The notes beneath the pieces are model-generated. The model saw nothing but the letters and a program-made list of their open reading frames with translations, did not search any database and was not told where the DNA came from. A stretch of DNA of 64,000 nucleotides, taken from positions 30,059 through 94,058 of the forward strand of contig CALVKK010000001.1 in the NCBI GenBank assembly GCA_944332645.1. Reading direction: 5' to 3'. The DNA is from an uncultured Bacilli bacterium (lineage in GTDB: Bacteria > Bacillota_I > Bacilli_A > RF39 > UBA660). Shown one piece after another: positions 32,725 to 47,752 of this stretch; the stretch's first letter is position 1, and the number at the start of each line of letters is the position of its first letter. A program made the position numbers and the translations under genes.

Positions 32725-32873
32725 TATTTATCACTCTTTTTCTTATTCTTCTTTTTTGGATTTGTTTCTTTCAAAACTCTTTTTACTGTACTTTTGATTA
32801 CTTTATTGGTCTCTTCTTCCCCTAAAAATTCATTAGACATTGCTCTTAATTTGCGTAGCATTGCTTTTTTCAT
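32724..32873 (-). CDS. Possible 49-aa basic protein
   Basis: Hand-translated as MKKAMLRKLRAMSNEFLGEEETNKVIKSTVKRVLKETNPKKKNKKKSDK. ATGA overlap with the terL stop and TAATG overlap with the next start. Confidence 0.35.
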   Translation of the reverse strand: MKKAMLRKLRAMSNEFLGEEETNKVIKSTVKRVLKETNPKKKNKKKSDK

Positions 32874-34240
32874 ATTATAACTATCTCCTCTCCCCAATCT
32901 TTTCGTATCGGTTTCTCAAAATCTAAATCAAATGTTTTCTCAACATTTTTTATTTCTTTAGTAGGTGCTACTCTACTTACACAAAAATACCTTAATGCAT
33001 CTGTAATATGTGTTGGTTCGTGTGGCTCGGTAGCTACATCATTAGGCTCTTTTTCGTCATGTTGTAACTGTGGCAAATATTTAATTAAATTAATACAATT
33101 ATTAAATATCTTCAAATCACTATCTTCATATATTTCTCCTGTTTGTTCACTTCTTAATTTTCTTACCTTTAACCATTCTTTAACATTTAACCATCCGGCT
33201 ATTCGATTGTTACTAGCTTTAGCTAAATCAATACCCCCCTCATAAAACAATTCAGCTGTACTTTTACCAGTATCTCTATTACGATTCCATAAATCAGGTG
33301 GTGCATATATATATTTATATCTAGCCTTTCTCATATAACTTTTTAATACTTGTCTTGCTTCGCTTACTATTAAATTACTTTTATGTATTTCGTTATAAAC
33401 ATAAGCTTTTCCTTTAGTATCTATAGCAACAAAAAGGACTGCAAACATATCTAATCCATAGTCCATAGCAATATATCTATTCCAATTATCTGGTATTTCA
33501 AATGGCTCTATCACATGTATTCGCCTTTTAAATTCTGGAAAGAACATTCCATCATAAATATCCCAATCACCATATTTTAGTGCCTTTCTTTCTTTTTCTG
33601 GTAAAGCATCTAGTCTTTTTATATAGTCAGGGTCATATTCTAGCATGAATTTATTATCAGTAACTAAACTTGGAATAAATATTCTAGTTACTTCTTCTCC
33701 GGTTTCTAATTTACAGTTATGAATTACATTAGGTTCGCCTATATCTATAAATCTTTCTTTTACCCATACATGCCCAACACCACCTGGATTAGTAGAACTT
33801 TTCATTCCCTTTGGATAAGGATTAGCACCACGACATCTTGAAATCATATATGTATACATAAATTCGGTGAAATGAGTTAATTCGTCAAATCGAATTACAT
33901 CATATTCAGCTGATTGGTATTGATAAACGTCTTTTTCATATTGAATATAACCAAAATCTATAATACTGCCATTATCAAATTTCCATGTATGCTTAGAGTT
34001 ATTATAACTCGCTATTGATAATGGATAGAAATCTAAACTTACACGAATTAATGATTTTTCTAAATCAGCAAATGTGCTTCTAAATATTATCTGTTTACTT
34101 TTAGGATATTTCAAAGCATAAAGTAAAGCATCAACTAATTGTCCATAAGATTTACCACCACCAGCAGCACCACCAAATAATGTCTCAAACGCTTCTGAAT
34201 TAATAAATTTTTTTTGTTTTTTAGTAATCGATATATCCAT
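32870..34240 (-). CDS. Terminase large subunit
   Basis: Walker A is GGAAGGGKS. ATPase and nuclease halves are present. 456 aa. Confidence 0.9.
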   Translation of the reverse strand: MDISITKKQKKFINSEAFETLFGGAAGGGKSYGQLVDALLYALKYPKSKQIIFRSTFADLEKSLIRVSLDFYPLSIASYNNSKHTWKFDNGSIIDFGYIQYEKDVYQYQSAEYDVIRFDELTHFTEFMYTYMISRCRGANPYPKGMKSSTNPGGVGHVWVKERFIDIGEPNVIHNCKLETGEEVTRIFIPSLVTDNKFMLEYDPDYIKRLDALPEKERKALKYGDWDIYDGMFFPEFKRRIHVIEPFEIPDNWNRYIAMDYGLDMFAVLFVAIDTKGKAYVYNEIHKSNLIVSEARQVLKSYMRKARYKYIYAPPDLWNRNRDTGKSTAELFYEGGIDLAKASNNRIAGWLNVKEWLKVRKLRSEQTGEIYEDSDLKIFNNCINLIKYLPQLQHDEKEPNDVATEPHEPTHITDALRYFCVSRVAPTKEIKNVEKTFDLDFEKPIRKDWGEEIVII

Positions 34241-34805: not shown

Positions 34806-35222
34806 CTACAATTTAACTCTTTTTAAATAACTATCTTTTATTAATAATTTTCCTTTTTTACCTCTATCGCTACAATGCTCTCTTTCAAACGCAGTCAATA
34901 GGTCGTTTATTCTTCTTAAATTTTCTAGATCTAAATAACCTTTTACATTTTCATCTATCATTTCACTTGTTATAGCAAGAAATATTTCGTAATCTTTAGC
35001 TTCTATTAAATGTAGATAATCGTGTGATGTATCTTGTCTTAATATCGCACCGTTCCAAAATAGATATCCCTCTCCTATTCCATATTCTTTGCTATTTCTT
35101 CTTGGCACTATAAGATGATGGTAGCTCAAGCTATTCTTTTTATCCACAGTAAAGCCCATAAAATCAAAACCTAGTTTCATTATCTTAAATTGGTTTATCA
35201 TTATCTTTGTTATTTCTCGCAT
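34806..35222 (-). CDS. HNH-like endonuclease (packaging-associated, tentative)
   Basis: YHHL...WNGAIL...HDYLH is an HH-N-H spacing. Lies upstream of terS, as in HNH-dependent cos phages. Confidence 0.4.
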   Translation of the reverse strand: MREITKIMINQFKIMKLGFDFMGFTVDKKNSLSYHHLIVPRRNSKEYGIGEGYLFWNGAILRQDTSHDYLHLIEAKDYEIFLAITSEMIDENVKGYLDLENLRRINDLLTAFEREHCSDRGKKGKLLIKDSYLKRVKL

Positions 35223-35247
35223 ATAATCACCACATTTTGGTTCTCGA

Positions 35248-35322
35248 GGCTAGAATCGAACTAGCACATTATAGGTTCAAAGCCTATTGCCTTACCGTTT
35301 GGCTACTCGAGAATATAAAAAA
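35248..35322 (-). tRNA. tRNA-Gln (anticodon UUG) with encoded CCA
   Basis: Hand-folded. Acceptor TCTCGAG/CTCGAGA (7 bp), D stem GCC/GGC, anticodon arm ATAGG-CTTTGAA-CCTAT, T arm GCTAG-TTCGATT-CTAGC, discriminator A + CCA. Confidence 0.8.
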
Positions 35323-35444
35323 GAAAAGAGGTAAACTTTTCTTAACAACCCACCTTACATACATTCGTACATGGAGTGGGCAAATATAAAAGGGGTTTTA
35401 CAATGAGATGTCTTTTAAACTATCTCACAGTATCATTATATAAC

Positions 35445-35478
35445 AAGTTTTGTGCAATTTTGTGCAATCTTTATTTTT
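35445..35478 (-). promoter_or_regulatory. Putative activator-dependent late promoter: tandem 10-bp repeats (minus strand ATTGCACAAA x2) 8 nt upstream of a TATAAT
   Basis: Repeats at 35459..35468 and 35469..35478. The -10 is at 35445..35450. No -35-like hexamer at the correct spacing. Confidence 0.4.
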
Positions 35479-35494
35479 TAACACAAAAAAAGAG

Positions 35495-35525
35495 CCTATC
35501 AATAACGATAGGCTCAACAAAGGTC
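35495..35525 (-). terminator. Strong intrinsic terminator ending the DUF2828 / tRNA-like RNA transcript
   Basis: On the minus strand, GAGCCUAUC-GUUAUU-GAUAGGCUC is followed by U7. Confidence 0.75.
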
Positions 35526-35528
35526 TTA

Positions 35529-35596
35529 TTTCTATCTTAACTGGATAGCGTCCTTAACAAACTTTTTATATTGCTGTATGACCTTTTATTTTTTAC
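35529..35596 (-). ncRNA. Stem-loop domain closed by AAAGGUC/GACCUUU, with an inner CUAUC-CAGUUAA-GAUAG hairpin
   Basis: Complementarity read directly. No family assignment. Confidence 0.3.
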
Positions 35597-35619
35597 TAAC
35601 AAATTTAACAAAGCCATTT

Positions 35620-35723
35620 TTTTATTTAGGTTGGAATCGAACCAACTACATTTTCGTTACTAGCGAAACGCTCTACCAAATGAGCTACTAATTCTTTTTG
35701 CAGTAATGGCTTTTAATATATGA
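35620..35723 (-). ncRNA. tRNA-like RNA (anticodon-position AGU) enclosed by a 9-bp outer helix; alternatively an atypical tRNA-Thr(AGU)
   Basis: D arm GCTC-ATTTGGTA-GAGC, anticodon arm TTTCG-CTAGTAA-CGAAA, T arm GTTGG-TTCGATT-CCAAC. The acceptor GAATTAG/CTAAATA has 2 mismatches. No CCA. The flanks AAAGCCATT and AATGGCTTT are complementary. Confidence 0.55.
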
Positions 35724-35757
35724 TATAACAATTCCCTATATTTCCATTATATCATAT

Positions 35758-37146
35758 TTACCCTTTAAAATCAATCTTTTTCTTGTAATTTTCAATAATT
35801 CTATCGATATATTCGTCCATATTCATAATGCCAGGTAATAGTAATAAAGATTGTAAATCGTAACCTGACATATAGATATTTCCATATTCGTCGTATTCTG
35901 GACTTGTACGATTTCTATTATTAAAATTCCACCAAATTATTTTTGTTTGTGCTCCGGCTTCTTTAAATATTTTCATAGTTTCTTCTTTAGATTGACGAGA
36001 ACCATAATCAAACTCCATATCAGACATAACAATTAAATAATCAGGAAATTTTTTCAATCCTTTCAAAATTTTCATTACAGCACCAAAATCTGTATTAGAG
36101 CAATCACCCGTATACATAGATTGATATTGTTCTTTTAATGTCTTACCTCTTATTGTCATCAATTTAGGATGTGAACTAAACGAAATTACTTGATTAGGTG
36201 CGTAAGTAGAATGCGTAGCAAGTGCATGAGCGATACTTGTTGCTTTAGAACATAAACTATTTGAATTATATAATCCACCCATTGAACCAGATGTATCTAA
36301 AACACAAATACAATTCAATGATAAACCACTTGTTTCTTGCTCTACAATTTTTTTACCAATAATATCAGCTACTTCTTCTATATTATCAGATTTCTTTACG
36401 GTTTTGTAAGCATCATGAACATTAGCTGTAGAAGTATTTACTTTTGCTTTATCTTCTTTTACTGCAATAATATATTCGCTAAATCTTTCTTTTAAATCGC
36501 TTCTAGTTGAAAATGTATGCAAATATTTTGTCATTGCTAAACTTGGAACTTGTTCAAAATTTATTTTTTCTACCAATGGATGAATGTATTTATTATTTTT
36601 GAAAATATCATCAAGAGGTGTGCCATCTTCTTTTAATTCAGCGTAAGACAATTTATATTCAACAGTTGAATCGGTTTTAATTAATGCTCTATATTCCTTT
36701 TCAGATATATTCCACATTTCACATAATGCTTTTGCTATTTTTTTATCTTTACCAGTTAGTCTTGGCATCCACTTTTTAGCTAATTCAATATGTTCTTGAT
36801 CTGTATTGCCAGATAGTACCGCCAACAAATAAGATAAATTTTTATCAGTTGGGATATGCCATAAATCATCATACCTACCAGCTGTAATAACATTATTAGG
36901 TTCTACTTCAGATAATTGCATCAATTTTCTTCCTAAATCGCGTCTACCTTGACCAAATCTAGGATCTCTCATATACATTGAAAATATTTTTTCTTTCTCA
37001 CTTTTTCCAATTCTCACTTGATCTAAATTTTTAGAGAAGAAATCAGCCATAAATAACAAGTCAATTAAATTATTACCGGTACTATTATATGCCTTATCCC
37101 CATTTTCAGTTAATTTTTCATTAAACATTTTTTCTATTTTATTCAT
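35758..37146 (-). CDS. DUF2828-type protein: helical N-terminal domain + C-terminal vWA domain with MIDAS (Ro60-like bipartite architecture)
   Basis: The N-terminal signature LTENGDKAYNSTGNNLIDLLF matches recalled DUF2828/UCP015417 proteins. The vWA MIDAS is VLDTSGSMGG, with downstream NTDF and SDMEF. Confidence 0.75.
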   Translation of the reverse strand: MNKIEKMFNEKLTENGDKAYNSTGNNLIDLLFMADFFSKNLDQVRIGKSEKEKIFSMYMRDPRFGQGRRDLGRKLMQLSEVEPNNVITAGRYDDLWHIPTDKNLSYLLAVLSGNTDQEHIELAKKWMPRLTGKDKKIAKALCEMWNISEKEYRALIKTDSTVEYKLSYAELKEDGTPLDDIFKNNKYIHPLVEKINFEQVPSLAMTKYLHTFSTRSDLKERFSEYIIAVKEDKAKVNTSTANVHDAYKTVKKSDNIEEVADIIGKKIVEQETSGLSLNCICVLDTSGSMGGLYNSNSLCSKATSIAHALATHSTYAPNQVISFSSHPKLMTIRGKTLKEQYQSMYTGDCSNTDFGAVMKILKGLKKFPDYLIVMSDMEFDYGSRQSKEETMKIFKEAGAQTKIIWWNFNNRNRTSPEYDEYGNIYMSGYDLQSLLLLPGIMNMDEYIDRIIENYKKKIDFKG

Positions 37147-37567
37147 AATCTTCCTCCTTAATCATTTTTCTAATATCATTAATAAAATCGTATATTCTTC
37201 GTTTACTATAATTTGTTTTTATTGCAATATATCTTACTTTCATATTTTTAACATATTTTAATAGATATATTTTATCTAACATGTTTGAACTATTATTTAA
37301 TTCTATTTCTTTTAATTTCAATCTATACTCTAAAACATCTCTTAAATTTCGTCTTACATTTATCTCTTTGTCGATTTCTTCCATCTTTATAGTGTAATTT
37401 AAGAATTTATTACTCGAGCTACCTTTTAGTAACTCATTCTCAAAATTAGCCGATTTTGGTACTACTGAATACAATAATTGCGACTTTTTAGCTAATGCTT
37501 TTTCAAATTCTTTTTTAGCTTCTTTATATTCTTCATTTAGTTTATAGTGTTCAATAAATAGTTCCAT
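37139..37567 (-). CDS. Putative late-gene transcriptional activator
   Basis: Exact copy of 974..1402 (+36165). Confidence 0.45.
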   Translation of the reverse strand: MELFIEHYKLNEEYKEAKKEFEKALAKKSQLLYSVVPKSANFENELLKGSSSNKFLNYTIKMEEIDKEINVRRNLRDVLEYRLKLKEIELNNSSNMLDKIYLLKYVKNMKVRYIAIKTNYSKRRIYDFINDIRKMIKEEDYE

Positions 37568-37579
37568 ACTACCACCTCT

Positions 37580-38200
37580 TTATTCTCTATCGAAATGTTC
37601 TCTTAATTTGCCGTTTTTCATTCTTACATATTTTGAAATGATGTTATTATGATTTACTATAAATCCCTCGACATTTCTTTTTACTTTGTTACAGTATTTT
37701 TCATAAATACTATCTAAATATTCTTTATTTGGTAAAACATTTAATTCAGCTACATTAGGTACTATACCAATAAAATTAGGAATTGTTTGACTAGCAAATG
37801 GGTATATAAACAAATCGTGGTCATAAATTAAATTATATAAATTAAAATCATCATCTATATTGGCTTTAGCAAACATATACCATTTTTTATCGAACTCATC
37901 GATAGTATACTTTAATTGCCCCATTCCAAGCCATTCTCCACAAATAGCACTATTCTCGTGTAATTCGTTTTGTAGTACTTCTTTATTATCTAGCAACCAT
38001 TGATACAATCCTTTATATAATATTTCTTTTTGTTCTTCAATTTCTTCAATACAAATAATATTATTTCTTTGTGCAATGTATAATTTCTCATTTTTCTTAA
38101 AAAAGACTAAATTACTACCATCTAATTTTTCAGTAACATAAATCTTATCTCCACTACATTTTACTCTTTTTGTTTTAGGATAAATTCCTTTTTTTATCAT
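37580..38200 (-). CDS. RNA ligase-like nucleotidyltransferase
   Basis: Exact copy of 1415..2035. Confidence 0.6.
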   Translation of the reverse strand: MIKKGIYPKTKRVKCSGDKIYVTEKLDGSNLVFFKKNEKLYIAQRNNIICIEEIEEQKEILYKGLYQWLLDNKEVLQNELHENSAICGEWLGMGQLKYTIDEFDKKWYMFAKANIDDDFNLYNLIYDHDLFIYPFASQTIPNFIGIVPNVAELNVLPNKEYLDSIYEKYCNKVKRNVEGFIVNHNNIISKYVRMKNGKLREHFDRE

Positions 38201-38589
38201 TCTTTCACCTCATAAGTCATACTTTCAAATTGTTCTTTCGTTACTATTGATTTAATAGGATAATGTTTTATATAAGGATTTATAGTTTTATATCCATGTT
38301 CCATTATTAATGTAAAATTAAAAATATCATCACCATTTGGGTTATATATTGCAGTTACTTTATATCCATTAACATAATCTCCTTCTTCAATTAAATCGAT
38401 TATGTTATAACTTGCTTTTAATACATCTTTTTTTTCTATATAATTAATTTCTTCTTTATCTATAAAAAATCCATCAATTTCAGGAAAAACGCCAATTCCT
38501 ACATCAACACTATCTTCGTGAAATTCTCTATAAAGTTTACAAATACCATTGTTTTTAGTTCTAACATACATTCCTTCTTCTAATTTCAT
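38197..38589 (-). CDS. Hypothetical phage protein
   Basis: Exact copy of 2032..2424. Confidence 0.6.
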   Translation of the reverse strand: MKLEEGMYVRTKNNGICKLYREFHEDSVDVGIGVFPEIDGFFIDKEEINYIEKKDVLKASYNIIDLIEEGDYVNGYKVTAIYNPNGDDIFNFTLIMEHGYKTINPYIKHYPIKSIVTKEQFESMTYEVKE

Positions 38590-38846
38590 ATTTTCCTCCC
38601 AAAAACATCATTAATGCCACAGTCTTTCACTTGGTCTTGTATATCTAATATTTGATTAAGTAATTTGCAATATTCTACTGGTTTATTATCGCTAGTGTAT
38701 ATTATTTTAAAGTATCTGCATGGTTTAGCGCACACGCCATATTTCTTAATTTTTTTAAATTTATGATGACAGTACTGTGTGTTTTTAGGTATAAACAAGC
38801 TAGCCCATTTTTCTTTAATCTTCTTCATCTTCCACCTCAATATCAT
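38586..38846 (-). CDS. Hypothetical Cys-rich phage protein
   Basis: Exact copy of 2421..2681. Confidence 0.5.
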   Translation of the reverse strand: MILRWKMKKIKEKWASLFIPKNTQYCHHKFKKIKKYGVCAKPCRYFKIIYTSDNKPVEYCKLLNQILDIQDQVKDCGINDVFGRKI

Positions 38847-38896
38847 TACTCTCGTAAACTTGTCCGAATTTACTTTTGCATTCGTTACATATCATT

Positions 38897-39253
38897 TTAA
38901 GCATCTACTTTCTGTAAATTACTTATTATTCCGTTAATTAATTCGGCTAATTTATCGCCACATTCATTATTCATTCTTAATTTTTCTTGAATATAACCAC
39001 CTAATTTAATACTATCGGTCGAAAAACCATAACTCGTATGATCAATAATACTAACAAACAAATAGTTTGATTTGATACCTCTTTGAAATTGTCCGTATTT
39101 TATATCTAACCCTAATTTAAAAACTATATCTAAATGTGTTGATTTCTCATCAGTCCAACCTATTCCTACTGTACCTCCTGTTTTTATAATATTTGCTATG
39201 GTTTTATATGTATTTTCGCCATTTATTATTTCACCATAATTATCTACATTCAT
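38897..39253 (-). CDS. Hypothetical phage protein
   Basis: Exact copy of 2732..3088. Confidence 0.55.
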   Translation of the reverse strand: MNVDNYGEIINGENTYKTIANIIKTGGTVGIGWTDEKSTHLDIVFKLGLDIKYGQFQRGIKSNYLFVSIIDHTSYGFSTDSIKLGGYIQEKLRMNNECGDKLAELINGIISNLQKVDA

Positions 39254-39269
39254 TATTTATCACTCCTAA

Positions 39270-39506
39270 TCATTTTTTAAAACTATAAGTATTACATCCC
39301 ATTCCACCTGAAGCAAAAATATAATTTCCGTTTAATATTTTTCCTATGCAATCATCACATAAATTTAATTTTTCATTACAAAGATATGGTGGGCATTTTT
39401 TACCTTCATTCTGTTCAGTTGTAAATATGACTTGTATGTCGACTTCTTCATTTTTAGTCTCTTTCTTACATACATCACAATAAATTTTTGTTATTATTTG
39501 ATTCAT
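39270..39506 (-). CDS. Hypothetical zinc-ribbon protein
   Basis: Exact copy of 3105..3341. Confidence 0.55.
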   Translation of the reverse strand: MNQIITKIYCDVCKKETKNEEVDIQVIFTTEQNEGKKCPPYLCNEKLNLCDDCIGKILNGNYIFASGGMGCNTYSFKK

Positions 39507-39790
39507 TCTTTACCTCCTGTTATTTCTTTATATTTTGATAAAATCTTTTCCATTATAGCGATCCAATTTTTAATAACAGGGTTCATCATCATATAATCGC
39601 CATTAATTTGAGAATATGTATTTTTTATAAAGCTTATTTCACTTTCTAACCATTGTATAAATTCTTTTTGTTGATTTTTTAATTTTTGATTTTCTTTTTT
39701 TAGTTCATCTATTTTAGGCTGTAATTCTAGTAAGACATTTGCTCTAGCTATTGCTATATCTAATTCTTCATCACTTGCACCACTTATCAT
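39503..39790 (-). CDS. Hypothetical coiled-coil phage protein
   Basis: Exact copy of 3338..3625. Confidence 0.5.
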   Translation of the reverse strand: MISGASDEELDIAIARANVLLELQPKIDELKKENQKLKNQQKEFIQWLESEISFIKNTYSQINGDYMMMNPVIKNWIAIMEKILSKYKEITGGKE

Positions 39791-39804
39791 TTATTCCACC
39801 CCTT

Positions 39805-40068
39805 TTAATATGTTACTTTAATACCTTTTGCTTCTATATTGTCGTGATTTAAATTAATAATTCCTTTGTTTGCTAATTTATATATCAATGAAAATGACTC
39901 AAGTATTTCATCGTCTAAAATAAATTTTGTTTCTGGTCCCTGATATTTGATAAATATATTATTTATATCAATCAAGATTGCCTTTATCGTATCTTCTTTT
40001 GAATATGCTTTATAATAACGGTCGTTTTTTAGCATATTATTAATTTCTGCTTTTATTTGTTCTAACAT
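39805..40068 (-). CDS. Hypothetical phage protein
   Basis: Exact copy of 3640..3903. Confidence 0.5.
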   Translation of the reverse strand: MLEQIKAEINNMLKNDRYYKAYSKEDTIKAILIDINNIFIKYQGPETKFILDDEILESFSLIYKLANKGIINLNHDNIEAKGIKVTY

Positions 40069-40841
40069 TATTCCACCTCATTTAAAACTTTTTGCTTTTC
40101 TAATTTATCGAAATCTGTAAATATACTTGCTTGTCCCCACGCAGTAATTCCGTTTATTCTTTTATTTGCTATTTCATAATATTCTTTATTTATTTCCATA
40201 CCTATAAATCTTCTTCCCGTTTCTTGACAAGCCACACAAGTTGTACCACTTCCACAAAAACAATCTAATACTATATCATTTGGTTGCGTTGTATGTAATA
40301 TATGTCTTTTAACAAGGTTAAGTGGTTTTATTGTTGGATGATTATAAAGAATTTTGTCATTTTGATTTAAAGAACTTACATACCATTTACTTTTTAGTTC
40401 ATAACCATTATTTAATTTTGTTCCTCTATTAAAATACAAACAATATTCTATATCACTTAACCAATTACCATTACACATAGGAACAGGATTAGTTTTATTC
40501 CATGTTAATATTTGATATGTAGAATTAGTGTTTTTGTTAAACCAATCTAATATTGAAAATATTTGTTCCTTGCTACACCATATAAAACAATTTACATTTT
40601 TTAGGATTCTTACAAATTCATCAAAAATTTTATAATCAATACCATCGTAAATGTCTGCTTTTTTTAATTCTTTTTTCATTTTTTGAACCTGTAAAGCAAT
40701 TCTCGAAGTTCCTGTTCCACCTTGTTGAAAAAGATAAGGAATATCTACATAAATGCAATCAACACTTTTATCAGGTATATTTTTAATCATCTCATAGCAA
40801 TCACAATTGATTATTTTGTTTATCATATCTTCAAATTTCAT
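40068..40841 (-). CDS. DNA methyltransferase (N6A/N4C, beta class)
   Basis: Exact copy of 3903..4676. Confidence 0.85.
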   Translation of the reverse strand: MKFEDMINKIINCDCYEMIKNIPDKSVDCIYVDIPYLFQQGGTGTSRIALQVQKMKKELKKADIYDGIDYKIFDEFVRILKNVNCFIWCSKEQIFSILDWFNKNTNSTYQILTWNKTNPVPMCNGNWLSDIEYCLYFNRGTKLNNGYELKSKWYVSSLNQNDKILYNHPTIKPLNLVKRHILHTTQPNDIVLDCFCGSGTTCVACQETGRRFIGMEINKEYYEIANKRINGITAWGQASIFTDFDKLEKQKVLNEVE

Positions 40842-40843
40842 TT

Positions 40844-41029
40844 TTAATCTACCTCTACTAAATATCTTCTTTTTTTACCTGTACCTCTTTTTTGGTAAGT
40901 TGGTGTATTATAAAAATCTAATGTCCTCTTTTTTACACCCATTTTTTTAGCAATTTCTTCTTTTGTACCAAATGCTAATTCAATATCGCCTTTATATAGT
41001 GAATAATAAACTTTTTTCATATCTTCCAA
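40844..41029 (-). CDS. Small hypothetical protein, possible HTH
   Basis: Exact copy of 4679..4864. Confidence 0.45.
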   Translation of the reverse strand: MEDMKKVYYSLYKGDIELAFGTKEEIAKKMGVKKRTLDFYNTPTYQKRGTGKKRRYLVEVD

Positions 41030-41202
41030 ATTCCCAACTCCTTTAACAGCTTAATTTTTTCATTTTTCGTTAAATTCCAATTATTCCAAATGGTACTTTG
41101 CAATTCAATTAATGCGCATTTATCGTTCAATAGTTTTGCTTTAAACACAGCTCTTTTGTAGCTTGGCAGAAAATATTTTTTAAACGATTCTAGATATTTC
41201 AT
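41017..41202 (-). CDS. Small hypothetical phage protein
   Basis: Exact copy of 4852..5037. Confidence 0.4.
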   Translation of the reverse strand: MKYLESFKKYFLPSYKRAVFKAKLLNDKCALIELQSTIWNNWNLTKNEKIKLLKELGIWKI

Positions 41203-41537
41203 AATTCTTTCAGCTCACAATCTTGATATATATACTCAAACATCTTCTTTTTCAATAAATAATCTTTTGTTTTATATCCTTTTGTATCTTCAATTATCAT
41301 TTTTTTTAATTTATTATCATAGTACATAAAATCTGCTATATATTCTATCTTTCGATATGATTTATTATTTTTCTTGAATTTTGGCTGTAGTTCGAATTTT
41401 GGTTGTAATGTTAAATCAGTTATTTCATTTGCTTTCAATAGTAAATCTAATTGATGAAATCTTTCATGTTCTTTCTTACTGTCAAAAAATCGGTTAGCTT
41501 TATCACAATAAACTTTTTCATTACGATACTTATTCAT
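41199..41537 (-). CDS. DUF1064-family putative resolvase/nuclease
   Basis: Exact copy of 5034..5372. Confidence 0.7.
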   Translation of the reverse strand: MNKYRNEKVYCDKANRFFDSKKEHERFHQLDLLLKANEITDLTLQPKFELQPKFKKNNKSYRKIEYIADFMYYDNKLKKMIIEDTKGYKTKDYLLKKKMFEYIYQDCELKEL

Positions 41538-41552
41538 CCAGTTACCCCATTT

Positions 41553-41972
41553 CTACCACTTAGTAAGTTCATTATTTTTTATAGCATTTGTTATTTCAAA
41601 TACTTCTTCATTTGTATAATCTTTTTTTAAACCTACCAAAATTGATGGCGGTGTTGGTATTTCTTTGTTAATAGGTCGCCAAATATGCAAACAATATGGA
41701 TGATTATTAACATAATCTTTTTTTGCTGGATGTAATTGCATACATACCTCATCATCTTTCCAAAATAAATCTTTCATTGAACACATTTGTTCCCACGATG
41801 GACATCTAGTTGGCATCGATACCGAACAATGTTCAAATTCAGCTCCCCAACTCATTATAAAATTTAAATGACATCTACTTTTTTTATCGTAAAAAGTCCC
41901 ACCAAAACCATCTCTACCTTCTTTTTTTATTTCTAAATATTTATTCTTTTTGATTTCTTCTAAACTTTTCAT
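41553..41972 (-). CDS. Conserved hypothetical phage protein
   Basis: Exact copy of 5388..5807. Confidence 0.55.
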   Translation of the reverse strand: MKSLEEIKKNKYLEIKKEGRDGFGGTFYDKKSRCHLNFIMSWGAEFEHCSVSMPTRCPSWEQMCSMKDLFWKDDEVCMQLHPAKKDYVNNHPYCLHIWRPINKEIPTPPSILVGLKKDYTNEEVFEITNAIKNNELTKW

Positions 41973-42322
41973 TTAGTACTCCATTTCTTATAAACTAAAT
42001 TCGACTTATCCCAACTTGGATAAAGACTCTTTAAATAATTTTCCATTATTGATAACATTTCTTTTCGTAGACTTTGATTACCATTGTCCAGCAAATGATG
42101 ATGATATCTACACCCCTCAACCCCGTTTTCTTCAATTCCTAAACCCATTTTTGACTTGGGTACAAAGTGCATAATATCGTGAATTATAAAATCCATTTTA
42201 TTAGGATTAAATTCTTCACAATGATAACCAATTCTACAAAAAAGACACGAATAATTATCTCTTTGTTGTATGGTCCTTATTGTGTCTTTATTAAATTGTA
42301 ATAATTTTGTATAATTTGGCAT
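41969..42322 (-). CDS. Putative HNH/zinc-binding nuclease-like protein
   Basis: Exact copy of 5804..6157. Confidence 0.35.
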   Translation of the reverse strand: MPNYTKLLQFNKDTIRTIQQRDNYSCLFCRIGYHCEEFNPNKMDFIIHDIMHFVPKSKMGLGIEENGVEGCRYHHHLLDNGNQSLRKEMLSIMENYLKSLYPSWDKSNLVYKKWSTK

Positions 42323-42790
42323 TTAAGCCACCCCCTGACTTTTAACATCTTCCTCTAATTCTTCTAACTCTTCCGGACTTAATGTTTCGATTCCTTGTTG
42401 TTTGCATTCTTCACAAAGTCCTTTCAATAAAATTGCAAATTCAGCTGTATTTAATTCGTGGCTAGGAGTGTACACGTGGTACACATAAAATTCCTTGCCA
42501 TTTTTTAATATCTTTGATTTTTTTTCGTAATATTCGATACCTCTAATATTACTTTCATTAGGTACTAAAATTTCATATCTAGGACTATAAGATTTAAGCA
42601 TCTCAAAATGTAATTCTTCTATTCCTATTTTTGTCTTTAATGATAATTCTCCTAATAATTTCCAATACTTTTTATTTTGTTTTTTATTTCTTTTTTCTTT
42701 GTATTCTTTTATTTCAAATAATTTATTTTTGTCTTGGTCATACAACCATTGAATTATTTTTAAGACATTTCCTATCATTAATCTAACCAA
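42323..42790 (-). CDS. NinB/Orf-like protein (tentative)
   Basis: Exact copy of 6158..6625. Confidence 0.35.
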   Translation of the reverse strand: MVRLMIGNVLKIIQWLYDQDKNKLFEIKEYKEKRNKKQNKKYWKLLGELSLKTKIGIEELHFEMLKSYSPRYEILVPNESNIRGIEYYEKKSKILKNGKEFYVYHVYTPSHELNTAEFAILLKGLCEECKQQGIETLSPEELEELEEDVKSQGVA

Positions 42791-43185
42791 TTATCATCAA
42801 TAGACACACTTTCACCAAAATCAGCGAACACATCAGTATTGTCTTGTTTTTCTTCTTTAGTTTCTTCTTTTTTCTTGCTATTTAAGAACATTACTCTTTC
42901 AGCAACGACTAATGTTTTGTATCTATTTTCGCCGTCTTTAGTTGTAAATTTTTCAGTTTGTACTCTACCTTCTATAGCTACTAAACTACCTTTATCTAAA
43001 TATTGGCAAATATTTTCAGCTTGCTTTCTCCACACTCTAATTTCAATAAAATCAGCCTCTTTTTTTCCGTCTTCACGAGGTGGTCTATCTACTGCTAAAT
43101 TGAAACTCGTTACTGCTATGTTTGAACTTGTATATTTTAATTCAGGTTTGGCTGTTAACCGACCTATAAGTATTGCTTTATTCAT
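42778..43185 (-). CDS. ssb: Single-stranded DNA-binding protein
   Basis: Exact copy of 6613..7020. Confidence 0.85.
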   Translation of the reverse strand: MNKAILIGRLTAKPELKYTSSNIAVTSFNLAVDRPPREDGKKEADFIEIRVWRKQAENICQYLDKGSLVAIEGRVQTEKFTTKDGENRYKTLVVAERVMFLNSKKKEETKEEKQDNTDVFADFGESVSIDDNWLD

Positions 43186-43495
43186 TACTTTTCTCCTTAC
43201 TATTTTTACTTTCAAAATAATTAATCGTACTTTTTATATATGATAGTGAATTATTTAATTTTTCTATTGCGTAATCGGAATATATCCCTTTATGTTCTAC
43301 ATAAACTTCTAATACTGCTGATATGCCTATTAAACTATCAACTAAATCTTTTAAAAATGCACTATCCCTAGAACCAGTAGAATAATATTCATCATAAATT
43401 TTCATATAATAATGTTCTATTTTGTTAAGTTCTCTATTTAATGAATCTTGAGTATTTTGTCTAAAGAAATCTCTATCTATATTGCTTCCAAACAT
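43178..43495 (-). CDS. Hypothetical phage protein
   Basis: Exact copy of 7013..7330. Confidence 0.5.
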   Translation of the reverse strand: MFGSNIDRDFFRQNTQDSLNRELNKIEHYYMKIYDEYYSTGSRDSAFLKDLVDSLIGISAVLEVYVEHKGIYSDYAIEKLNNSLSYIKSTINYFESKNSKEKSNE

Positions 43496-44196
43496 TCTCT
43501 AAACTCTACCTCCAATTCTTCTCTTTCTTCATCATTATGAAGTTGATTTAAATACCTATTTGCTTCTTCTAATATTTCCATATATTTAACATTATTTTTT
43601 ATAGCATTATTAACCGTATCATATCTTTCTTTGTCTTCCGCTGCTTTTGTATATACTAAATACAAATCACTTAATACTTGATATTTTCTACCTTGAAGAT
43701 AATTAGATAAGTAGGTATCTGTTTTTTTGTTGTTTGAGACATAATTATCTATATATACATCTCTTATTTCTTTATTACTAACACCATTATCATCTAAAAA
43801 ATCTTCTGCTATTTTTGTTAGCATATCTTCTTCTTCACTTTCGGCTGCTTGTATTAATTCATATCCTTTTTCTTTTCTTATGTAATATTTTTCACAAGAA
43901 CATATTAAATCAAATATTGCACCGTTAATTTGTTTCTTTAGAATTTTTATATTGCTTTGATTAATATGATAAGTTATAAAATTATAATTGCTATAATCAT
44001 TATTTTTTATATTAATTTCCAATACAATACTGTTGCTTTGTGTATTAATTTCGTATAGTTGTAACGAAAATATAAAATCTTTATATACAAACAAATTCCA
44101 TTTTTTATTCCAAAGTTCTCTATCTAAATAATTTTTTATTATAAAACTATAATCAATTTCATATTGCTTAATAATTAAGTTATTCATTACGTTCAC
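43477..44196 (-). CDS. Hypothetical phage protein
   Basis: Exact copy of 7312..8031. Confidence 0.55.
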   Translation of the reverse strand: MNVMNNLIIKQYEIDYSFIIKNYLDRELWNKKWNLFVYKDFIFSLQLYEINTQSNSIVLEINIKNNDYSNYNFITYHINQSNIKILKKQINGAIFDLICSCEKYYIRKEKGYELIQAAESEEEDMLTKIAEDFLDDNGVSNKEIRDVYIDNYVSNNKKTDTYLSNYLQGRKYQVLSDLYLVYTKAAEDKERYDTVNNAIKNNVKYMEILEEANRYLNQLHNDEEREELEVEFRECLEAI

Positions 44197-44200
44197 CCTT

Positions 44201-44776
44201 TTAATATTTACTTTCCCAATTTTCTTGATAAATCTTTAACAAGTCATATTTTTCTAGCCAATTCATAAATTTATAAATTTCTTCTTTTAAATCCATTTTT
44301 AATTCTTCACGATAATATTCTTCTTTAAAAATTCGTAATTGTTTTTTATCTTCTTCCCAGTCGTTTACCATATCTTTTTTATCAAAATTATTACAAATTA
44401 CATATTGCATTTTATATGCCTCTGGTACTAATTCCATATAAACTGCTGTTTGATAACTTCCGTAAAATTTACCGACATCATAATTGTTAGTGTGCTTATA
44501 ATCAGTAATAACTCCAGCTTTTAAACAATCAATTTTTCCGTAGACAATGAAATTATCAATATTTTTATATACTTTAACTTGGTAACATCCATTTTTTGTT
44601 TCAGGATAATGAGCAACCATATACTCCTCAAACTCATTACCCTTAACAAATTTACTTTTATCTTCGACTTCTTCTTTTTTTAAAGTTTTAATAAAATCTT
44701 CCAAAGTGCCATATTGATTTTCGACACAATATTTCCAACTATTCAGCAATGTCGGTGTTATTAGATACTTTTTCAT
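44201..44776 (-). CDS. PD-(D/E)XK nuclease
   Basis: Exact copy of 8036..8611. Confidence 0.5.
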   Translation of the reverse strand: MKKYLITPTLLNSWKYCVENQYGTLEDFIKTLKKEEVEDKSKFVKGNEFEEYMVAHYPETKNGCYQVKVYKNIDNFIVYGKIDCLKAGVITDYKHTNNYDVGKFYGSYQTAVYMELVPEAYKMQYVICNNFDKKDMVNDWEEDKKQLRIFKEEYYREELKMDLKEEIYKFMNWLEKYDLLKIYQENWESKY

Positions 44777-45692
44777 ATTCTTTCTTCTCACTATTCCATT
44801 GATAACCTAATTCTGCTACCTTTTCTTTAAATTTGTGTTTCAACTCTTTTTCACTTGTTAAAATATGATTAGTTTCTTTAATTAATTTTGTCATACTTGT
44901 TAAATCTTCTTTGGTTTCCATTTTTTCAATTTGTGGTACTATTTCATTCATTAATTTTTCATATTCTTTCTTTTGTTCTTCAAAGAATACAGCTTCTTTT
45001 TTGATGTTGTTATTAGCTAATTGAAACAATTTTGTTAAAAAGTCATTTGGTTTTGTTCCGTCTAATTCAGGTATTTTCATTACACCTTTAATTCCAAAAC
45101 TTGCTTTAGCAAAATATCTTTCACAATTATCGAATCCGATAGTTTTCTTTTTACCGATAATTTCCATAAAGCCACCAATTTCAACATTTTGCCATACTGT
45201 GTTTTTTGTAGATCCTTCTACTAAAATTCTTAACTTTGTTTGTTCCTCATCTTTTTCTTCAACTGCGTGAAAAACAATAACAATGTTTTTTCTTAAATTG
45301 TAGTAGCAATTATCCATAAATCTTGAAAATTCTCTTGCCACAGCTCCATAACCTTGTAATGATAAACTACCGTCTTTTTTAGCATTTTTAACATCCTGTT
45401 TAATAACATAATTCTTCATTAATTCTAATAATTTTCCACCAGTATCAATTACTAAAGTTTCATAATCACTTAAATCGCCTTTTAAATCTTCGATTAATTC
45501 TTCATAACTATTTGGTTGAATAAAGTCTTTTCTTGCACTAGCCATAACTCTATTGATACCTAAATCTACATCTACCAATAATGGTTTTGGTGCAGATAAA
45601 GCTAAAGTCGTTTTACCTATTCCTGGATACCCAGCTATTAACATTCTTATTTTTTGATTTTCATTAATTAATTCATTTGGTTTTTTTATCAT
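44739..45692 (-). CDS. AAA_24/Sak4-like ATPase
   Basis: Exact copy of 8574..9527. Confidence 0.7.
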   Translation of the reverse strand: MIKKPNELINENQKIRMLIAGYPGIGKTTLALSAPKPLLVDVDLGINRVMASARKDFIQPNSYEELIEDLKGDLSDYETLVIDTGGKLLELMKNYVIKQDVKNAKKDGSLSLQGYGAVAREFSRFMDNCYYNLRKNIVIVFHAVEEKDEEQTKLRILVEGSTKNTVWQNVEIGGFMEIIGKKKTIGFDNCERYFAKASFGIKGVMKIPELDGTKPNDFLTKLFQLANNNIKKEAVFFEEQKKEYEKLMNEIVPQIEKMETKEDLTSMTKLIKETNHILTSEKELKHKFKEKVAELGYQWNSEKKEYEKVSNNTDIAE

Positions 45693-46847: not shown

Positions 46848-46850
46848 TCC

Positions 46851-47000: not shown

Positions 47001-47017
47001 TTTTACATCACCCCTTT

Positions 47018-47251: not shown

Positions 47252-47278
47252 ATAGCTTGTCCTTTCTTTTTTAGAAAA

Positions 47279-47733: not shown

Positions 47734-47752
47734 TATTTGCAGTTAGTTTTTT

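What the first reader, a model, noticed from the sequence alone, without database searches (positions are those of the whole stretch)
35620..35723. Atypical tRNA-like element: AGU at the anticodon position, mismatched acceptor, no CCA, clamped by a 9-bp outer helix
On the minus strand a near-perfect cloverleaf can be drawn, with D arm GCTC/GAGC, anticodon stem TTTCG/CGAAA around loop CTAGTAA, and T arm GTTGG-TTCGATT-CCAAC. The acceptor pairing GAATTAG/CTAAATA has two mismatches (1:72 G/A and 3:70 A/A). The 3' end runs into an A-tract instead of CCA. The sequences 10 nt upstream (AAAGCCATT) and 4 nt downstream (AATGGCTTT) are perfectly complementary, which extends the acceptor into a long helix. 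An A34 anticodon (AGU) is unusual for bacterial systems outside tRNA-Arg(ACG). The neighbouring tRNA-Gln (35248..35322) is canonical and encodes CCA, so the contrast is notable.
Basis: seen in the sequence. Interest (0 to 1): 0.7.

Follow-up and report, generated by a model that had tools for sequence, protein, structure and literature searches.

The report
Phage Y-RNA-like tRNA mimic beside Ro60-like gene
The odd "tRNA-Thr(AGU)" is most likely not a decoding tRNA but a prophage non-coding RNA of the Y-RNA kind: a tRNA-shaped domain held in a conserved clamp, encoded right after a Ro60-like RNA-binding protein gene, and one member of a large, apparently undescribed family in gut Bacillota phages.

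Summary
A cloverleaf lies at 35694..35622 (-). ARAGORN calls it Thr(agt), and it scores 54 bits on Rfam tRNA with 1:72 and 3:70 unpaired. A perfect 9-bp clamp (35713-35705 / 35618-35610) flanks it.

The context explains it. The gene ending 44 nt upstream of the clamp (35758..37146) is a DUF2828/DUF7788 protein with a predicted Ro60 fold. It is homologous to mycobacteriophage "Ro-like RNA binding proteins".

In about 80 related loci I found 104 modules with the same frame, AAG-helix / (U)UWCWGCAAA / ... / helix-CUUG. All lie downstream of that gene on its strand, against 1 in roughly 780 kb of control sequence.

In 29 unpermuted tRNA-like modules:
- The clamp is 100% paired, and 5 of its 7 pairs covary.
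- The D, anticodon and T arms covary.
- Acceptor pairs 1-4 are near random.
- CCA is never encoded, whereas 170 of 190 ordinary tRNAs in the same loci encode it.
- The "anticodon" is not conserved: AGU here, AGG in relatives at 94-97% protein identity.

Best reading: a Y-RNA-like partner of the Ro60-like protein with an unpermuted tRNA-mimic domain. It is not a member of Rfam YrlA. Protein binding and function are inferred, not shown.

The parts
35746..35774 (-). Sigma-70-type promoter of the ncRNA unit: -35 TTGATT (35774..35769), 17-nt spacer, extended -10 TGaTATAAT (35754..35746). It overlaps the last codons and the stop codon of the Ro60-like gene.
   Evidence: 10 of 12 consensus matches, with TG; coordinates. 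Equivalent TTGAYT-17-TAnAAT sites sit at the same place in L001-L007, L067 and L072. Transcription itself is not shown.
35705..35713 (-). 5' strand of the clamp (closing helix), AAAGCCATT. The outer AAG is conserved in sequence across the family.
   Evidence: In 29 homologous modules the helix is 100% paired and 5 of its 7 pairs show changes on both sides.
35695..35704 (-). Conserved single-stranded motif ACTGCAA plus an A-run. This is the 5' side of the internal loop and the proposed recognition site for the Ro60-like protein.
   Evidence: In alignment A5, C, G, C, A, A are invariant in 29 of 29 modules and the next A in 28 of 29. The motif is present in all module types, with or without a tRNA-like interior. 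Its role as a binding site is inferred by analogy with GGUCCGA / GNCGAAN0-1G of known Y RNAs.
35622..35694 (-). tRNA-like domain in normal D-anticodon-T order. It has complete D, anticodon and T arms and the tertiary-contact nucleotides (U8, A14, G18, G19, U54, U55, C56, A58). The acceptor is weak (5 of 7 pairs; 1:72 G/A and 3:70 A/A), there is no CCA, and the loop is CUAGUAA.
   Evidence: (ARAGORN Thr(agt); Rfam tRNA 54.1 bits), 48, 58, 59, 76.
35610..35618 (-). 3' strand of the clamp, AATGGCTTT, followed by a conserved G(TT).
35519..35586 (-). Second module with the same frame: AAAGGTC - AT - ACAGCAA ... GACCTTT G. It has no tRNA-like domain. Its interior contains a hairpin with a 5-bp stem and a 7-nt loop (35548..35532).
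   Evidence: The inner hairpin shows a compensatory change in L196 and L072 (CTATC/GATAG to CTAAC/GTTAG).
35485..35515 (-). Intrinsic terminator (10-bp stem, 5 G-C pairs, T7) that closes the two-module unit.
   Evidence: conserved in L067, L072 and L196.
35758..37146 (-). Gene for a 462-aa Ro60-like protein (DUF2828 + DUF7788/vWA), the proposed protein partner.
   Evidence: Pfam and PHROG. AF2 model with pLDDT 81.8. The top 13 Foldseek PDB hits are all Ro60. tblastn hits mycobacteriophage 'Ro-like RNA binding protein' at E 1e-23 to 1e-28.
37580..38200 (-). 206-aa RNA ligase-family gene two genes upstream. Its association with the system is possible but not obligatory.
   Evidence: PF09414 at 1.4e-12 and phrog_548. 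Present in L067 and L068 but absent in L072.
35238..35312 (-). Ordinary prophage tRNA-Gln(UUG), listed for contrast: fully paired acceptor (no non-pairs flagged), encoded CCA, no frame.
   Evidence: 69.5 bits. L067 and L072 carry an Ile(UAU)-type tRNA with CCA in the same slot.

Best explanation
The element is the tRNA-mimic module of a prophage-encoded, Y-RNA-like non-coding RNA.

A strong promoter overlapping the end of the Ro60-like gene would drive a transcript of roughly 250 nt that stops at the terminator at 35515..35485. This transcript carries two modules built on one frame: a 7-10-bp closing helix with a conserved outer AAG/CUU(G), and a conserved single-stranded (U)UWCWGCAAA motif just inside its 5' strand.

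By analogy with Ro60-Y RNA complexes, this frame would be the docking site for the Ro60-like DUF2828 protein encoded immediately upstream. In module 1 the frame holds a complete, unpermuted tRNA-shaped domain joined through a degenerate 3-4-bp 'acceptor'. That domain would serve as the effector or bait end, presenting a tRNA shape to some tRNA-binding factor. It would not be aminoacylated and would not decode.

Shown here: the structure; its conservation and covariation; its exclusive position downstream of the Ro60-like gene; the lack of tRNA hallmarks (acceptor, CCA, conserved anticodon); and the Ro60 fold of the neighbouring protein.

Inferred: transcription and RNA ends; binding by the protein; the identity of the factor that meets the tRNA-like domain.
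For: 1. Neighbour. The gene ending 44 nt upstream of the clamp has Pfam DUF2828, DUF7788 and a weak vWA_Ro60 hit, and matches phrog_850 'RNA-binding protein' at 1e-50. The best 13 PDB matches of its AF2 model are all Ro60 proteins over about 500 columns, E 9e-8 to 4e-5. It aligns over more than 90% of its length with mycobacteriophage 'Ro-like RNA binding protein'. That is the protein group next to which phage YrlA RNAs were reported.

2. Family and position. The frame finder gives 104 modules in 190.5 kb downstream on the gene's strand. Controls give 1 in 186 kb upstream, 0 in 108 kb of gene sequence and 0 in 485 kb of the opposite strand. A search that started from the RNA found 9 framed copies. 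All 8 with enough flanking sequence have the gene upstream.

3. Structure. In 29 modules, 96.7% of cells are paired against 68.5% in shuffles, and the covariation score is 0.708 against 0.163 (0 of 500 shuffles reach it). The clamp is 100% paired with 5 of 7 pairs covarying. The anticodon stem is 100% paired with 5 of 5 covarying.

4. Not a decoding tRNA.
- Acceptor pairing from 1:72 to 7:66 is 0.34, 0.45, 0.52, 0.59, 0.83, 0.86, 1.0.
- Of ARAGORN-called tRNAs in these loci, 0 of 15 framed ones encode CCA and 1 of 15 has a 7/7 acceptor. Among 190 unframed ones, 170 encode CCA and 160 have 7/7.
- There are 16 different triplets among 24 seven-nt loops, and 5 loops have 6, 8 or 9 nt.
- Orthologues at 94-97% protein identity read CTAGGAA, CTAGGGA and TTAGGGA where the window reads CTAGTAA, while the frame is unchanged.

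5. Same frame, other interiors. The frame also surrounds permuted YrlA-type interiors, which Rfam YrlA hits at 38-48 bits, and small hairpin-only interiors. So the frame, not the tRNA part, is the common denominator.

6. tRNA mimicry. U8, A14, G18, G19, U54-U55-C56 and A58 are conserved.
Against: - No RNA data: transcription, RNA ends and processing are predicted only.
- No binding data. The protein-RNA link rests on synteny and on analogy with Ro60/Y RNA.
- The conserved motif (ACWGCAA) differs from the published Ro-binding motifs (GGUCCGA, GNCGAAN0-1G).
- The protein is not detected as TROVE or Ro60 by sequence profiles against PDB. Foldseek TM-scores are moderate (0.37-0.51).
- The anticodon loop keeps tRNA-like context (U33 in 26 of 29, a purine at 37 in all). 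Real tRNA function, or recent descent from real tRNAs, would also produce this.
- The covariation counts were made on a model-fitted alignment, which leans towards the structure.
- The single-sequence fold is not significantly more stable than shuffles (z = -1.5).
Confidence: 0.78

Rival explanations
1. It is a genuine decoding tRNA-Thr(AGU), perhaps read as IGU after deamination. The clamp would be only a precursor-processing helix removed by RNase P and RNase Z, CCA would be added after transcription, and the mismatched acceptor would be tolerated or repaired.
For: ARAGORN and Rfam both call it a tRNA above threshold. All tertiary-contact nucleotides, U33 and A37 are present. Many Bacillota tRNA genes lack an encoded CCA (my own knowledge). 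M. smegmatis YrlA is cut by RNase P and receives CCA.
Against: - Relatives at 94-97% protein identity carry AGG with the same body. That would change the decoded amino-acid family without any change in the acceptor.
- Pairs 1-4 of the acceptor are at chance level across the family. L067, L072 and L196 have only 4 acceptor pairs.
- Ordinary tRNAs in the same phages nearly always encode CCA and a perfect acceptor.
- The same clamp and motif enclose RNAs with no tRNA part at all.
- Some family members have 6-, 8- or 9-nt loops or lack U33.
- G1:C72 and C2:G71, which are ThrRS identity elements in E. coli (my own knowledge), are absent.
Confidence: 0.05
2. The frame (clamp plus ACWGCAA) is real and functional but is not a Ro60-like docking site. 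It could be a nuclease-protection or processing cassette, or the binding site of a different protein, that merely travels with the DUF2828 gene.
For: The motif differs from known Ro-binding motifs. The link to the protein is synteny only. Modules lie in tandem arrays that must be separated or stabilised somehow.
Against: The frame is strictly placed downstream of this one gene family across loci whose other neighbours differ. The precedent that Y RNAs lie within 4 kb of Ro60 on the same strand is exactly this pattern. Sequence-invariant single-stranded bases next to a terminal helix match how Ro60 reads Y RNA.
Confidence: 0.12
3. It is a decaying tRNA pseudogene, and the 9-bp flanking complementarity is a coincidence or a remnant of an insertion event.
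For: The acceptor is mismatched, there is no CCA, and the Rfam score is lower than that of the neighbouring tRNA. A clamp of at least 9 bp arises by chance in 0.3% of random placements.
Against: The D, anticodon and T stems and the clamp are maintained by compensatory changes in 29 homologues. The motif is invariant. A consensus promoter and a terminator are conserved. Module density downstream of the gene is more than 100-fold that of the controls.
Confidence: 0.02

Closest known systems
YrlA (Y RNA-like A; Rfam RF02553), the tRNA-mimicking Y RNAs of bacteria and mycobacteriophages (Chen et al. 2014, PMC4201824; Wang et al. 2018, bioRxiv 10.1101/312249)
   Same: It is encoded next to a Ro60-type gene on the same strand. 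A terminal stem is formed by the 5' and 3' ends, with a short conserved motif near the 5' end. The interior mimics tRNA, with near-canonical D and T arms: the window's D arm GCUCAUUUGGUAGAGC equals the YrlA consensus shown. There is no free CCA end. It is accompanied by a second, smaller Y-like RNA, as YrlA is by YrlB. True YrlA-type (permuted) modules sit in the same arrays in relatives such as L001, L003, L007 and L074.
   Different: The topology differs. YrlA is a circularly permuted tRNA, with the Ro stem at the anticodon-stem position, a closed acceptor hairpin and no anticodon loop. Here the order is D-anticodon-T with a complete anticodon arm, and the frame joins at the acceptor end. 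The motif is ACWGCAA, not GNCGAAN0-1G. There is no RF02553 hit in the window even at E <= 10. The partner protein belongs to DUF2828/DUF7788 rather than being an annotated TROVE protein.
Deinococcus radiodurans Yrn1 (Y RNA)
   Same: According to Chen et al., the T and D arms lie in the opposite orientation to YrlA, and the stem-loop between them occupies the anticodon-arm position. This is an unpermuted layout in which the Ro-binding stem is formed by the RNA ends.
   Different: Yrn1 has only partial D-loop features, a 6-nt 'anticodon' loop and no variable region, and no dihydrouridine was detected in it. The window element is a complete cloverleaf that passes tRNA detectors. Yrn1 keeps both strands of the metazoan-type Ro-binding helix, whereas here the motif is different.
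Thermus phage phiLo phiRo60 with Yrl1 and Yrl2 (NAR 2025, PMC12135203)
   Same: A phage-encoded Ro60 homologue with two Y-like RNAs encoded beside the gene. The phage protein structure (9kop, 9l5y) is among the best Foldseek matches, with the highest TM-score at 0.51.
   Different: Those Yrls lie upstream of the gene and were picked by a CGAA motif. One search found 'tRNA' only twice in the main text, and the one passage shown was a reference title. Sequence identity to the window protein is about 12%.
Ordinary phage-encoded tRNAs
   Same: Cloverleaf structure, a location in the tRNA/moron region near the terminase gene, and a call by ARAGORN and Rfam tRNA.
   Different: Ordinary tRNAs in these same loci have 7/7 acceptors (160 of 190) and encode CCA (170 of 190), and most lack a flanking helix of 7 bp or more (11 of 190 have one).

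Membership tests
Canonical elongator tRNA (tRNA-Thr) | Cloverleaf that scores above the threshold of tRNA detectors | tested here: met
   ARAGORN Thr(agt); Rfam RF00005 at 54.1 bits, gathering score 29.
Canonical elongator tRNA (tRNA-Thr) | Seven-base-pair acceptor stem ending in a free N73-CCA | tested here: not met
   1:72 G/A and 3:70 A/A are unpaired, and an A-run follows instead of CCA. Family-wide pairing at positions 1-4 is 0.34-0.59, and 0 of 15 framed calls encode CCA against 170 of 190 unframed. Addition of CCA after transcription cannot be excluded.
Canonical elongator tRNA (tRNA-Thr) | Anticodon conserved among orthologues | tested here: not met
   AGT in the window against AGG in L196, L072 and L067 (94-97% protein identity). 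The same D and T body carries TGT, GAA, GAT, CGG and TGG elsewhere.
Canonical elongator tRNA (tRNA-Thr) | Aminoacylation and use in translation | not testable with these tools
   Needs an acid gel or tRNA-seq.
YrlA (Rfam RF02553) | Encoded within about 4 kb of a Ro60-type gene on the same strand | tested here: met
   The clamp starts 44 nt after the stop codon of the Ro60-like gene, on the same strand. The same holds across the family.
YrlA (Rfam RF02553) | Reaches the family's covariance-model score | tested here: not met
   No RF02553 hit in 35100..35900 at E <= 10. Permuted modules in relatives reach only 38-48 bits against a gathering score of 69.
YrlA (Rfam RF02553) | GNCGAAN0-1G motif near the 5' end | tested here: not met
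   The conserved motif here is (U)UWCWGCAAA; the published definition is.
YrlA (Rfam RF02553) | Permuted order: Ro stem at the anticodon-stem position, T arm, closed acceptor hairpin, D arm, and no anticodon loop | tested here: not met
   The order is acceptor-D-anticodon arm-T-acceptor, with a 7-nt anticodon loop; the definition is.
YrlA (Rfam RF02553) | tRNA-like D and T arms with the tertiary-contact nucleotides | tested here: met
Y RNA in the broad sense (ncRNA partner of a Ro60 protein) | Terminal stem formed by the two ends, with conserved bases that a Ro60 protein reads | tested here: inconclusive
   A covarying terminal helix and an invariant adjacent motif are shown. Whether the protein reads them is inference.
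Y RNA in the broad sense (ncRNA partner of a Ro60 protein) | Physically bound by, and stabilised by, the Ro60 protein | not testable with these tools
   Needs RIP, EMSA or a gene deletion.
Ro60/TROVE protein family (the neighbouring gene) | Ring of HEAT-like helical repeats followed by a vWA domain | tested here: met
   The AF2 model has a helical N-terminal part and an alpha/beta C-terminal part. The top 13 Foldseek hits are Ro60 over about 500 columns, followed by vWA/MIDAS domains only.
Ro60/TROVE protein family (the neighbouring gene) | Detectable by sequence as TROVE (PF05731) or as related to solved Ro60 structures | tested here: not met
   Pfam gives DUF2828, DUF7788 and a vWA_Ro60 hit below its cut-off (24.2 against 27.7 bits), with no TROVE hit. 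The profile search against PDB sequences found nothing at E <= 0.01. Homology to the mycobacteriophage 'Ro-like' proteins is clear.

The most novel reading that the evidence does not exclude
The Ro60-like ring carries an exchangeable set of tRNA look-alikes whose anticodon stem-loops imitate particular host or phage tRNAs. The loop contexts resemble, from my memory of those tRNAs' anticodon loops, those of Asp, Pro, Ile, Phe and Thr. The loops evolve fast: three of seven loop positions differ among relatives at 94-97% protein identity, while the frame is invariant.

On this reading the RNP is a counter-defence device. It would work as a decoy or sensor for anticodon-loop-targeting nucleases or other tRNA-directed immunity, possibly coupled to repair by the nearby RNA ligase. 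It would not be a general RNA-decay adaptor. This would give the long-unexplained tRNA-like domain of bacterial Y RNAs a concrete role.
Probability: 0.15. Interest if true: 0.85.

Novelty: new variant of a known kind. Interest (0 to 1): 0.6.

Why it matters
Ro60-Y RNA particles are conserved from bacteria to humans, where Ro60 is a lupus and Sjogren autoantigen. What the tRNA-like domain of bacterial Y RNAs is for remains unknown.

This locus extends the picture in five ways:
- The same Ro-type docking frame can carry a tRNA mimic in either topology: permuted, as in YrlA, or normal, as here.
- A large phage protein family filed as DUF2828, or simply 'RNA-binding protein', has the Ro60 fold and is accompanied by arrays of such RNAs.
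- The family is abundant in gut Bacillota phages and prophages: 2045 protein relatives and 679 phage records.
- The mimic keeps a full anticodon arm whose triplet drifts freely. That is a testable clue to what the domain interacts with.
- In practice, these elements are miscalled as tRNAs with odd anticodons (AGU, AUC, AGG, ACA, AUA, even 'Stop'). This inflates phage tRNA inventories and suggests false A34 decoding.

Tried and rejected
1. Nucleotide search of INPHARED with the locus found only unrelated tRNA hits. There is no close cultured phage.
2. A sequence-profile search of PDB with the Ro60-like alignment found nothing. The fold had to be tested by AF2 plus Foldseek.
I redid it with database proteins.
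It was uninformative, so I replaced it with a body-specific pattern.
5. The MAFFT alignment A3 put the clamp out of register, and RNAalifold recovered only the anticodon and T stems. I solved this by building a covariance model with a hand-written structure and re-aligning.
6. The single-sequence fold energy is not significant (z = -1.5). An AT-rich sequence gives energy little power here.
7. NCBIfam gave nothing beyond weak RNA-ligase hits for the neighbouring genes.
8. Two Y-RNA reviews (PMC10870794, PMC6047535) are not held. No paper in the library links DUF2828 to Ro60 or Y RNA. The novelty claim is therefore limited to what I could search.
10. I considered RNase III processing of the clamp and rejected it. 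Nine base pairs is too short for RNase III (my own knowledge), and tRNA-less modules have the same frame.
11. I considered 5'-editing repair of acceptor positions 1-3, as in mitochondrial and Thg1-like systems. I judged it unlikely because both strands are simply A/T-rich and unpaired across the family.
Full report
**1. The observation.**

On the minus strand the sequence reads: AAAGCCATT ACTGCAAAAA GAATTAG TA GCTCATTTGGTAGAGC G TTTCG CTAGTAA CGAAA ATGTA GTTGG TTCGATT CCAAC CTAAATA AAAA AATGGCTTT G.

- ARAGORN calls tRNA-Thr(agt) at 35622..35694.
- Rfam tRNA gives 54.1 bits and marks 1:72 and 3:70 as non-pairs. The neighbouring tRNA-Gln(UUG) scores 69.5 bits with a clean acceptor and encoded CCA.
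- Exact coordinates: clamp 35713-35705 / 35618-35610; motif 35704-35698; 'anticodon' 35661-35659.
- A perfect clamp of at least 9 bp occurs around 0.3% of random 73-nt segments of this window.
- RNAfold forms the clamp and the D, anticodon and T arms but not a stable acceptor. The energy z-score is unremarkable.

**2. The context.**

All nearby genes are on the minus strand.

- *The upstream gene.* The ORF at 35758..37146 (462 aa) ends 44 nt before the clamp. It matches DUF2828, DUF7788 and, weakly, vWA_Ro60, and it matches phrog_850 'RNA-binding protein' at 1e-50.
- *Other neighbours.* An RNA-ligase-family gene lies at 37580..38200. The large terminase lies at 32870..34240.
- *Predicted transcription unit.* A near-consensus promoter with an extended -10 (35774..35746) and an intrinsic terminator (35515..35485) bracket the element. 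Between the tRNA-like element and the terminator lies a second RNA with the same ends: AAAGGTC..ACAGCAA...GACCTTTG.

**3. The protein.**

- It has 2045 relatives in the protein collection. Those listed all carry DUF2828 + DUF7788, and the only informative name given is 'DUF2828 family protein [Bacilli bacterium]'.
- A profile search of PDB sequences found nothing.
- An AlphaFold2 model (pLDDT 81.8) matches Ro60 structures as its 13 best PDB hits. These are Xenopus and human Ro60, Thermus phage phiLo Ro60 and D. radiodurans Rsr, with E 9e-8 to 4e-5 over about 500 aligned columns and TM-scores of 0.37-0.51. Only isolated vWA domains follow.
- tblastn finds homologues in 679 phage records. Among them are 95 Mycobacterium-phage records; those listed are almost all annotated 'Ro-like RNA binding protein' (26-28% identity, E down to 1e-28). 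Lak megaphages match at 43%.
- I therefore treat the protein as a divergent Ro60-like protein. It does not meet the sequence-level TROVE definition.

**4. The RNA family.**

*Loci and modules.* I fetched 7 + 59 IMG/VR loci, 29 genome loci and several metagenome contigs that carry relatives of the gene. Downstream of the gene these loci hold arrays of 1-5 modules that share one frame: AAG + variable helix, a conserved (U)UWCWGCAAA, an interior, the complementary strand + CUU, then G.

*Position.* A frame finder gives 104 modules in 190.5 kb of downstream same-strand sequence. The controls give 1 in 186 kb upstream, 0 inside the gene and 0 on the opposite strand. The frame was found in 46 of 80 loci, which are most of those with at least 59% protein identity.

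*Interior types.* There are three:
- small hairpins only;
- the permuted T arm / closed hairpin / D arm layout of YrlA, which Rfam YrlA detects at 38-48 bits, below its threshold;
- the unpermuted full cloverleaf seen in the window, sometimes with an extra 5' hairpin.

*RNA-first search.* A search using the window's own D and T body returned 11 matches. Nine are framed. All 8 with enough flanking sequence have the gene upstream. The two unframed matches look like ordinary tRNAs with well-paired acceptors.

**5. Structure test.**

I built a covariance model from 18 unpermuted modules and used it to re-align 29 modules. On that alignment:
- 96.7% of cells are paired, against 68.5% in shuffles and at most 46% when partners are slid.
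- The covariation score is 0.708 against 0.163 (0 of 500 shuffles reach it).
- The clamp is 100% paired, with changes on both sides in 5 of 7 pairs. One pair, for example, reads UA:10, AU:8, CG:8, GC:3.
- The anticodon stem is 100% paired, and all 5 pairs covary.
- The D and T stems covary.
- The inner acceptor is 84.8% paired.

Caveat: this alignment was fitted to the model.

Conserved unpaired positions include the motif (C, G, C, A, A invariant) and the tRNA tertiary positions U8, A14, G18, G19, U54, U55, C56 and A58.

**6. It is not a decoding tRNA.**

- *Acceptor.* Pairing falls from 1.0 at 7:66 to 0.34 at 1:72. This is about chance level for an A/T-rich sequence (my estimate, about 0.35-0.4).
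- *Comparison with ordinary tRNAs in the same loci*:

| ARAGORN-called tRNAs | Number | Encode CCA | 7/7 acceptor | Flanking helix >= 7 bp |
|---|---|---|---|---|
| Unframed | 190 | 170 | 160 | 11 |
| Framed | 15 | 0 | 1 (a trivial T6G/CA6) | 13 |

- *Anticodon.* The triplet is unconstrained: there are 16 different triplets among 24 seven-nt loops, and 5 loops have 6, 8 or 9 nt.
- *Closest relatives.* The loop differs between near relatives while the clamp, motif, D arm and T arm stay identical:

| Source | Protein identity to window | Loop |
|---|---|---|
| window | - | CTAGTAA |
| L196 | 94% | CTAGGAA |
| L072 | 95% | CTAGGGA |
| L067 | 97% | TTAGGGA |

- *Same body, other loops.* The same D and T body carries TGT, GAA, GAT, CGG and TGG loops in other loci.
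- *What is retained.* U33 (26 of 29) and a purine at 37 (all) are kept. The loop is therefore kept tRNA-shaped even though its 'codon' meaning is not.
- *A34.* A34 is frequent (7 of 29) and C34 is almost absent. This fits G34-to-A drift in a 29% GC genome.

**7. Comparison with what is known.**

- Chen et al. 2014 showed that likely Y RNAs lie within 4 kb of Ro60 on the same strand in more than 250 bacteria and 22 phages. They also showed that YrlA contains a tRNA-like domain modified by TruB and DusA.
- YrlA is a circularly permuted mimic. The Ro-binding stem replaces the anticodon stem, the acceptor is a closed hairpin and there is no anticodon loop.
- The same paper notes that D. radiodurans Yrn1 has the opposite arm orientation, with an 'anticodon arm' between the arms. 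However, its D arm is incomplete and its loop has 6 nt.
- The window element therefore works like a Y RNA of the tRNA-mimic type. It fails four defining features of YrlA: model score, motif, topology and absence of an anticodon loop. It is far more tRNA-like than Yrn1.
- Phage Ro60-Y-like RNA pairs are known from mycobacteriophages and from Thermus phage phiLo, where they bind PNPase in vitro.
- Rating: new variant of a known kind.

**8. Mechanism, with what is shown and what is inferred.**

*Shown:*
- a conserved promoter-to-terminator unit;
- two framed modules;
- a covarying clamp and an invariant motif;
- a tRNA-shaped interior that lacks tRNA function marks;
- obligatory synteny with a gene for a protein of Ro60 fold.

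*Inferred:*
- The protein docks on the clamp and motif, as Ro60 reads the conserved 5' strand of the Y RNA stem.
- The tRNA-like domain projects as the effector end and engages a tRNA-binding factor.
- By analogy with the Rsr-Y RNA-PNPase complex, and given the nearby RNA ligase and ordinary tRNA genes, the particle probably acts in RNA turnover, repair or counter-defence during infection or induction.

Which factor it engages is unknown.

**9. Where the window comes from.**

- Positions 1..15582 are identical to 36166..51747.
- Each copy ends with a 505-aa large serine recombinase.
- Positions 51748..64000 are host chromosome, carrying a truncated Mn-catalase-family (PF05067) gene, Ddl, MreB, SpoIID, MurA, a class-II fructose-bisphosphate aldolase and UDG.
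- The element therefore sits in a 36,165-bp prophage present in tandem in a probably spore-forming (it encodes a SpoIID-domain protein), low-GC Bacillota genome.
- Relatives come from human and animal gut metagenomes and MAGs.

Noticed in passing
window 1..15582 and 36166..51747; joints at 15582/15583 and 51747/51748: A 15,582-bp exact direct repeat. The window holds a 36,165-bp prophage (GC 28.9%) in tandem: one partial copy, one full copy, then host DNA. Each copy ends with a 505-aa large serine recombinase (14042..15559 and 50207..51724). Tandem lysogeny and an assembly artefact cannot be told apart here.
   Followed up: partly
window 51731..52213 and 52223..64000: The host flank starts with a 160-aa Mn-catalase-family (PF05067) ORF that matches only profile positions 29-189 of 284. 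The prophage may therefore have inserted into this gene. Ddl, MreB, SpoIID, MurA, a class-II fructose-bisphosphate aldolase and UDG follow, which points to a probably spore-forming Bacillota host.
   Followed up: partly
window 35519..35586 (-): The second framed module has no tRNA-like domain. Its interior includes a hairpin with a 5-bp stem and a 7-nt loop (35548..35532), the dimensions of an anticodon arm. It shows a compensatory change in L196 and L072 and a different loop in L067.
   Followed up: partly
window 35747..35757 and 35718..35728 (-): A perfect 11-bp inverted repeat, ATATGATATAA / TTATATCATAT. Its left arm contains the -10 box of the ncRNA promoter. It is conserved in L067, with one mismatch in L072 and L196. 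It could be an operator or a leader hairpin.
   Followed up: no
window 35313..35470 (-); L067 4818..4893, L072 4321..4397: A second promoter-like site (TTGCAC..TATAAT) is followed by a structured leader of about 130 nt that ends in an A/T-rich hairpin and a T-run. Then comes an ordinary CCA-encoding tRNA. This slot holds Gln(UUG) in the window but Ile(UAU) in relatives at 95-97% identity, so tRNA cassettes are exchanged here.
   Followed up: partly
L001, L003, L005, L007 (for example L003 about 3590-3790; L001 about 4500-4720): Another recurrent RNA-like motif lies between the Y-like modules of relatives: a hairpin GCTACC-TTAnTn-GGTAGC followed by nnAGTAGAT, with a distal ATCTATT...GGTGCT. I did not see it when reading the window's Ro60-like locus (35200..35800), and no Rfam family matched it at E <= 1.
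   Followed up: no
alignment A5, column 77 (position 34): Among 29 framed tRNA-like modules, position 34 is A in 7 and C in at most 2. Loops such as CTATCAC, CTAGTAA, CTAGGGA and CTATAAC look to me like G34 loops of Asp, Thr, Pro and Tyr tRNAs with G34 changed to A. ARAGORN therefore reports odd anticodons (atc, agt, agg, aca, ata, and a 'Stop' tta).
   Followed up: partly
L197 3745..3830 and L069 3826..3908: Relatives at 86-87% protein identity keep exactly the window's clamp and motif (AAAGCCATT ACTGCAA ... AATGGCTTT). Their interior is shortened, apparently to a T arm plus one hairpin, with no obvious D arm. The interior is remodelled while the frame is retained.
   Followed up: partly
window 37139..37567 and 37580..38200 (-): A 142-aa ORF of unknown family overlaps the start of the Ro60-like gene by 8 nt, which suggests translational coupling. 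It is conserved in L067, L068, L072 and L073. The RNA-ligase gene beyond it is present in L067 and L068 but is replaced by other genes in L072.
   Followed up: partly
L074 4001..6250: A 125-kb gut contig carries the Ro60-like gene followed by framed modules interleaved with more than 10 ordinary CCA-encoding tRNAs. Y-like modules and true tRNAs appear to be co-transcribed in one array, as reported for Yrn2-tRNAAsp-Yrn1 in D. radiodurans.
   Followed up: no
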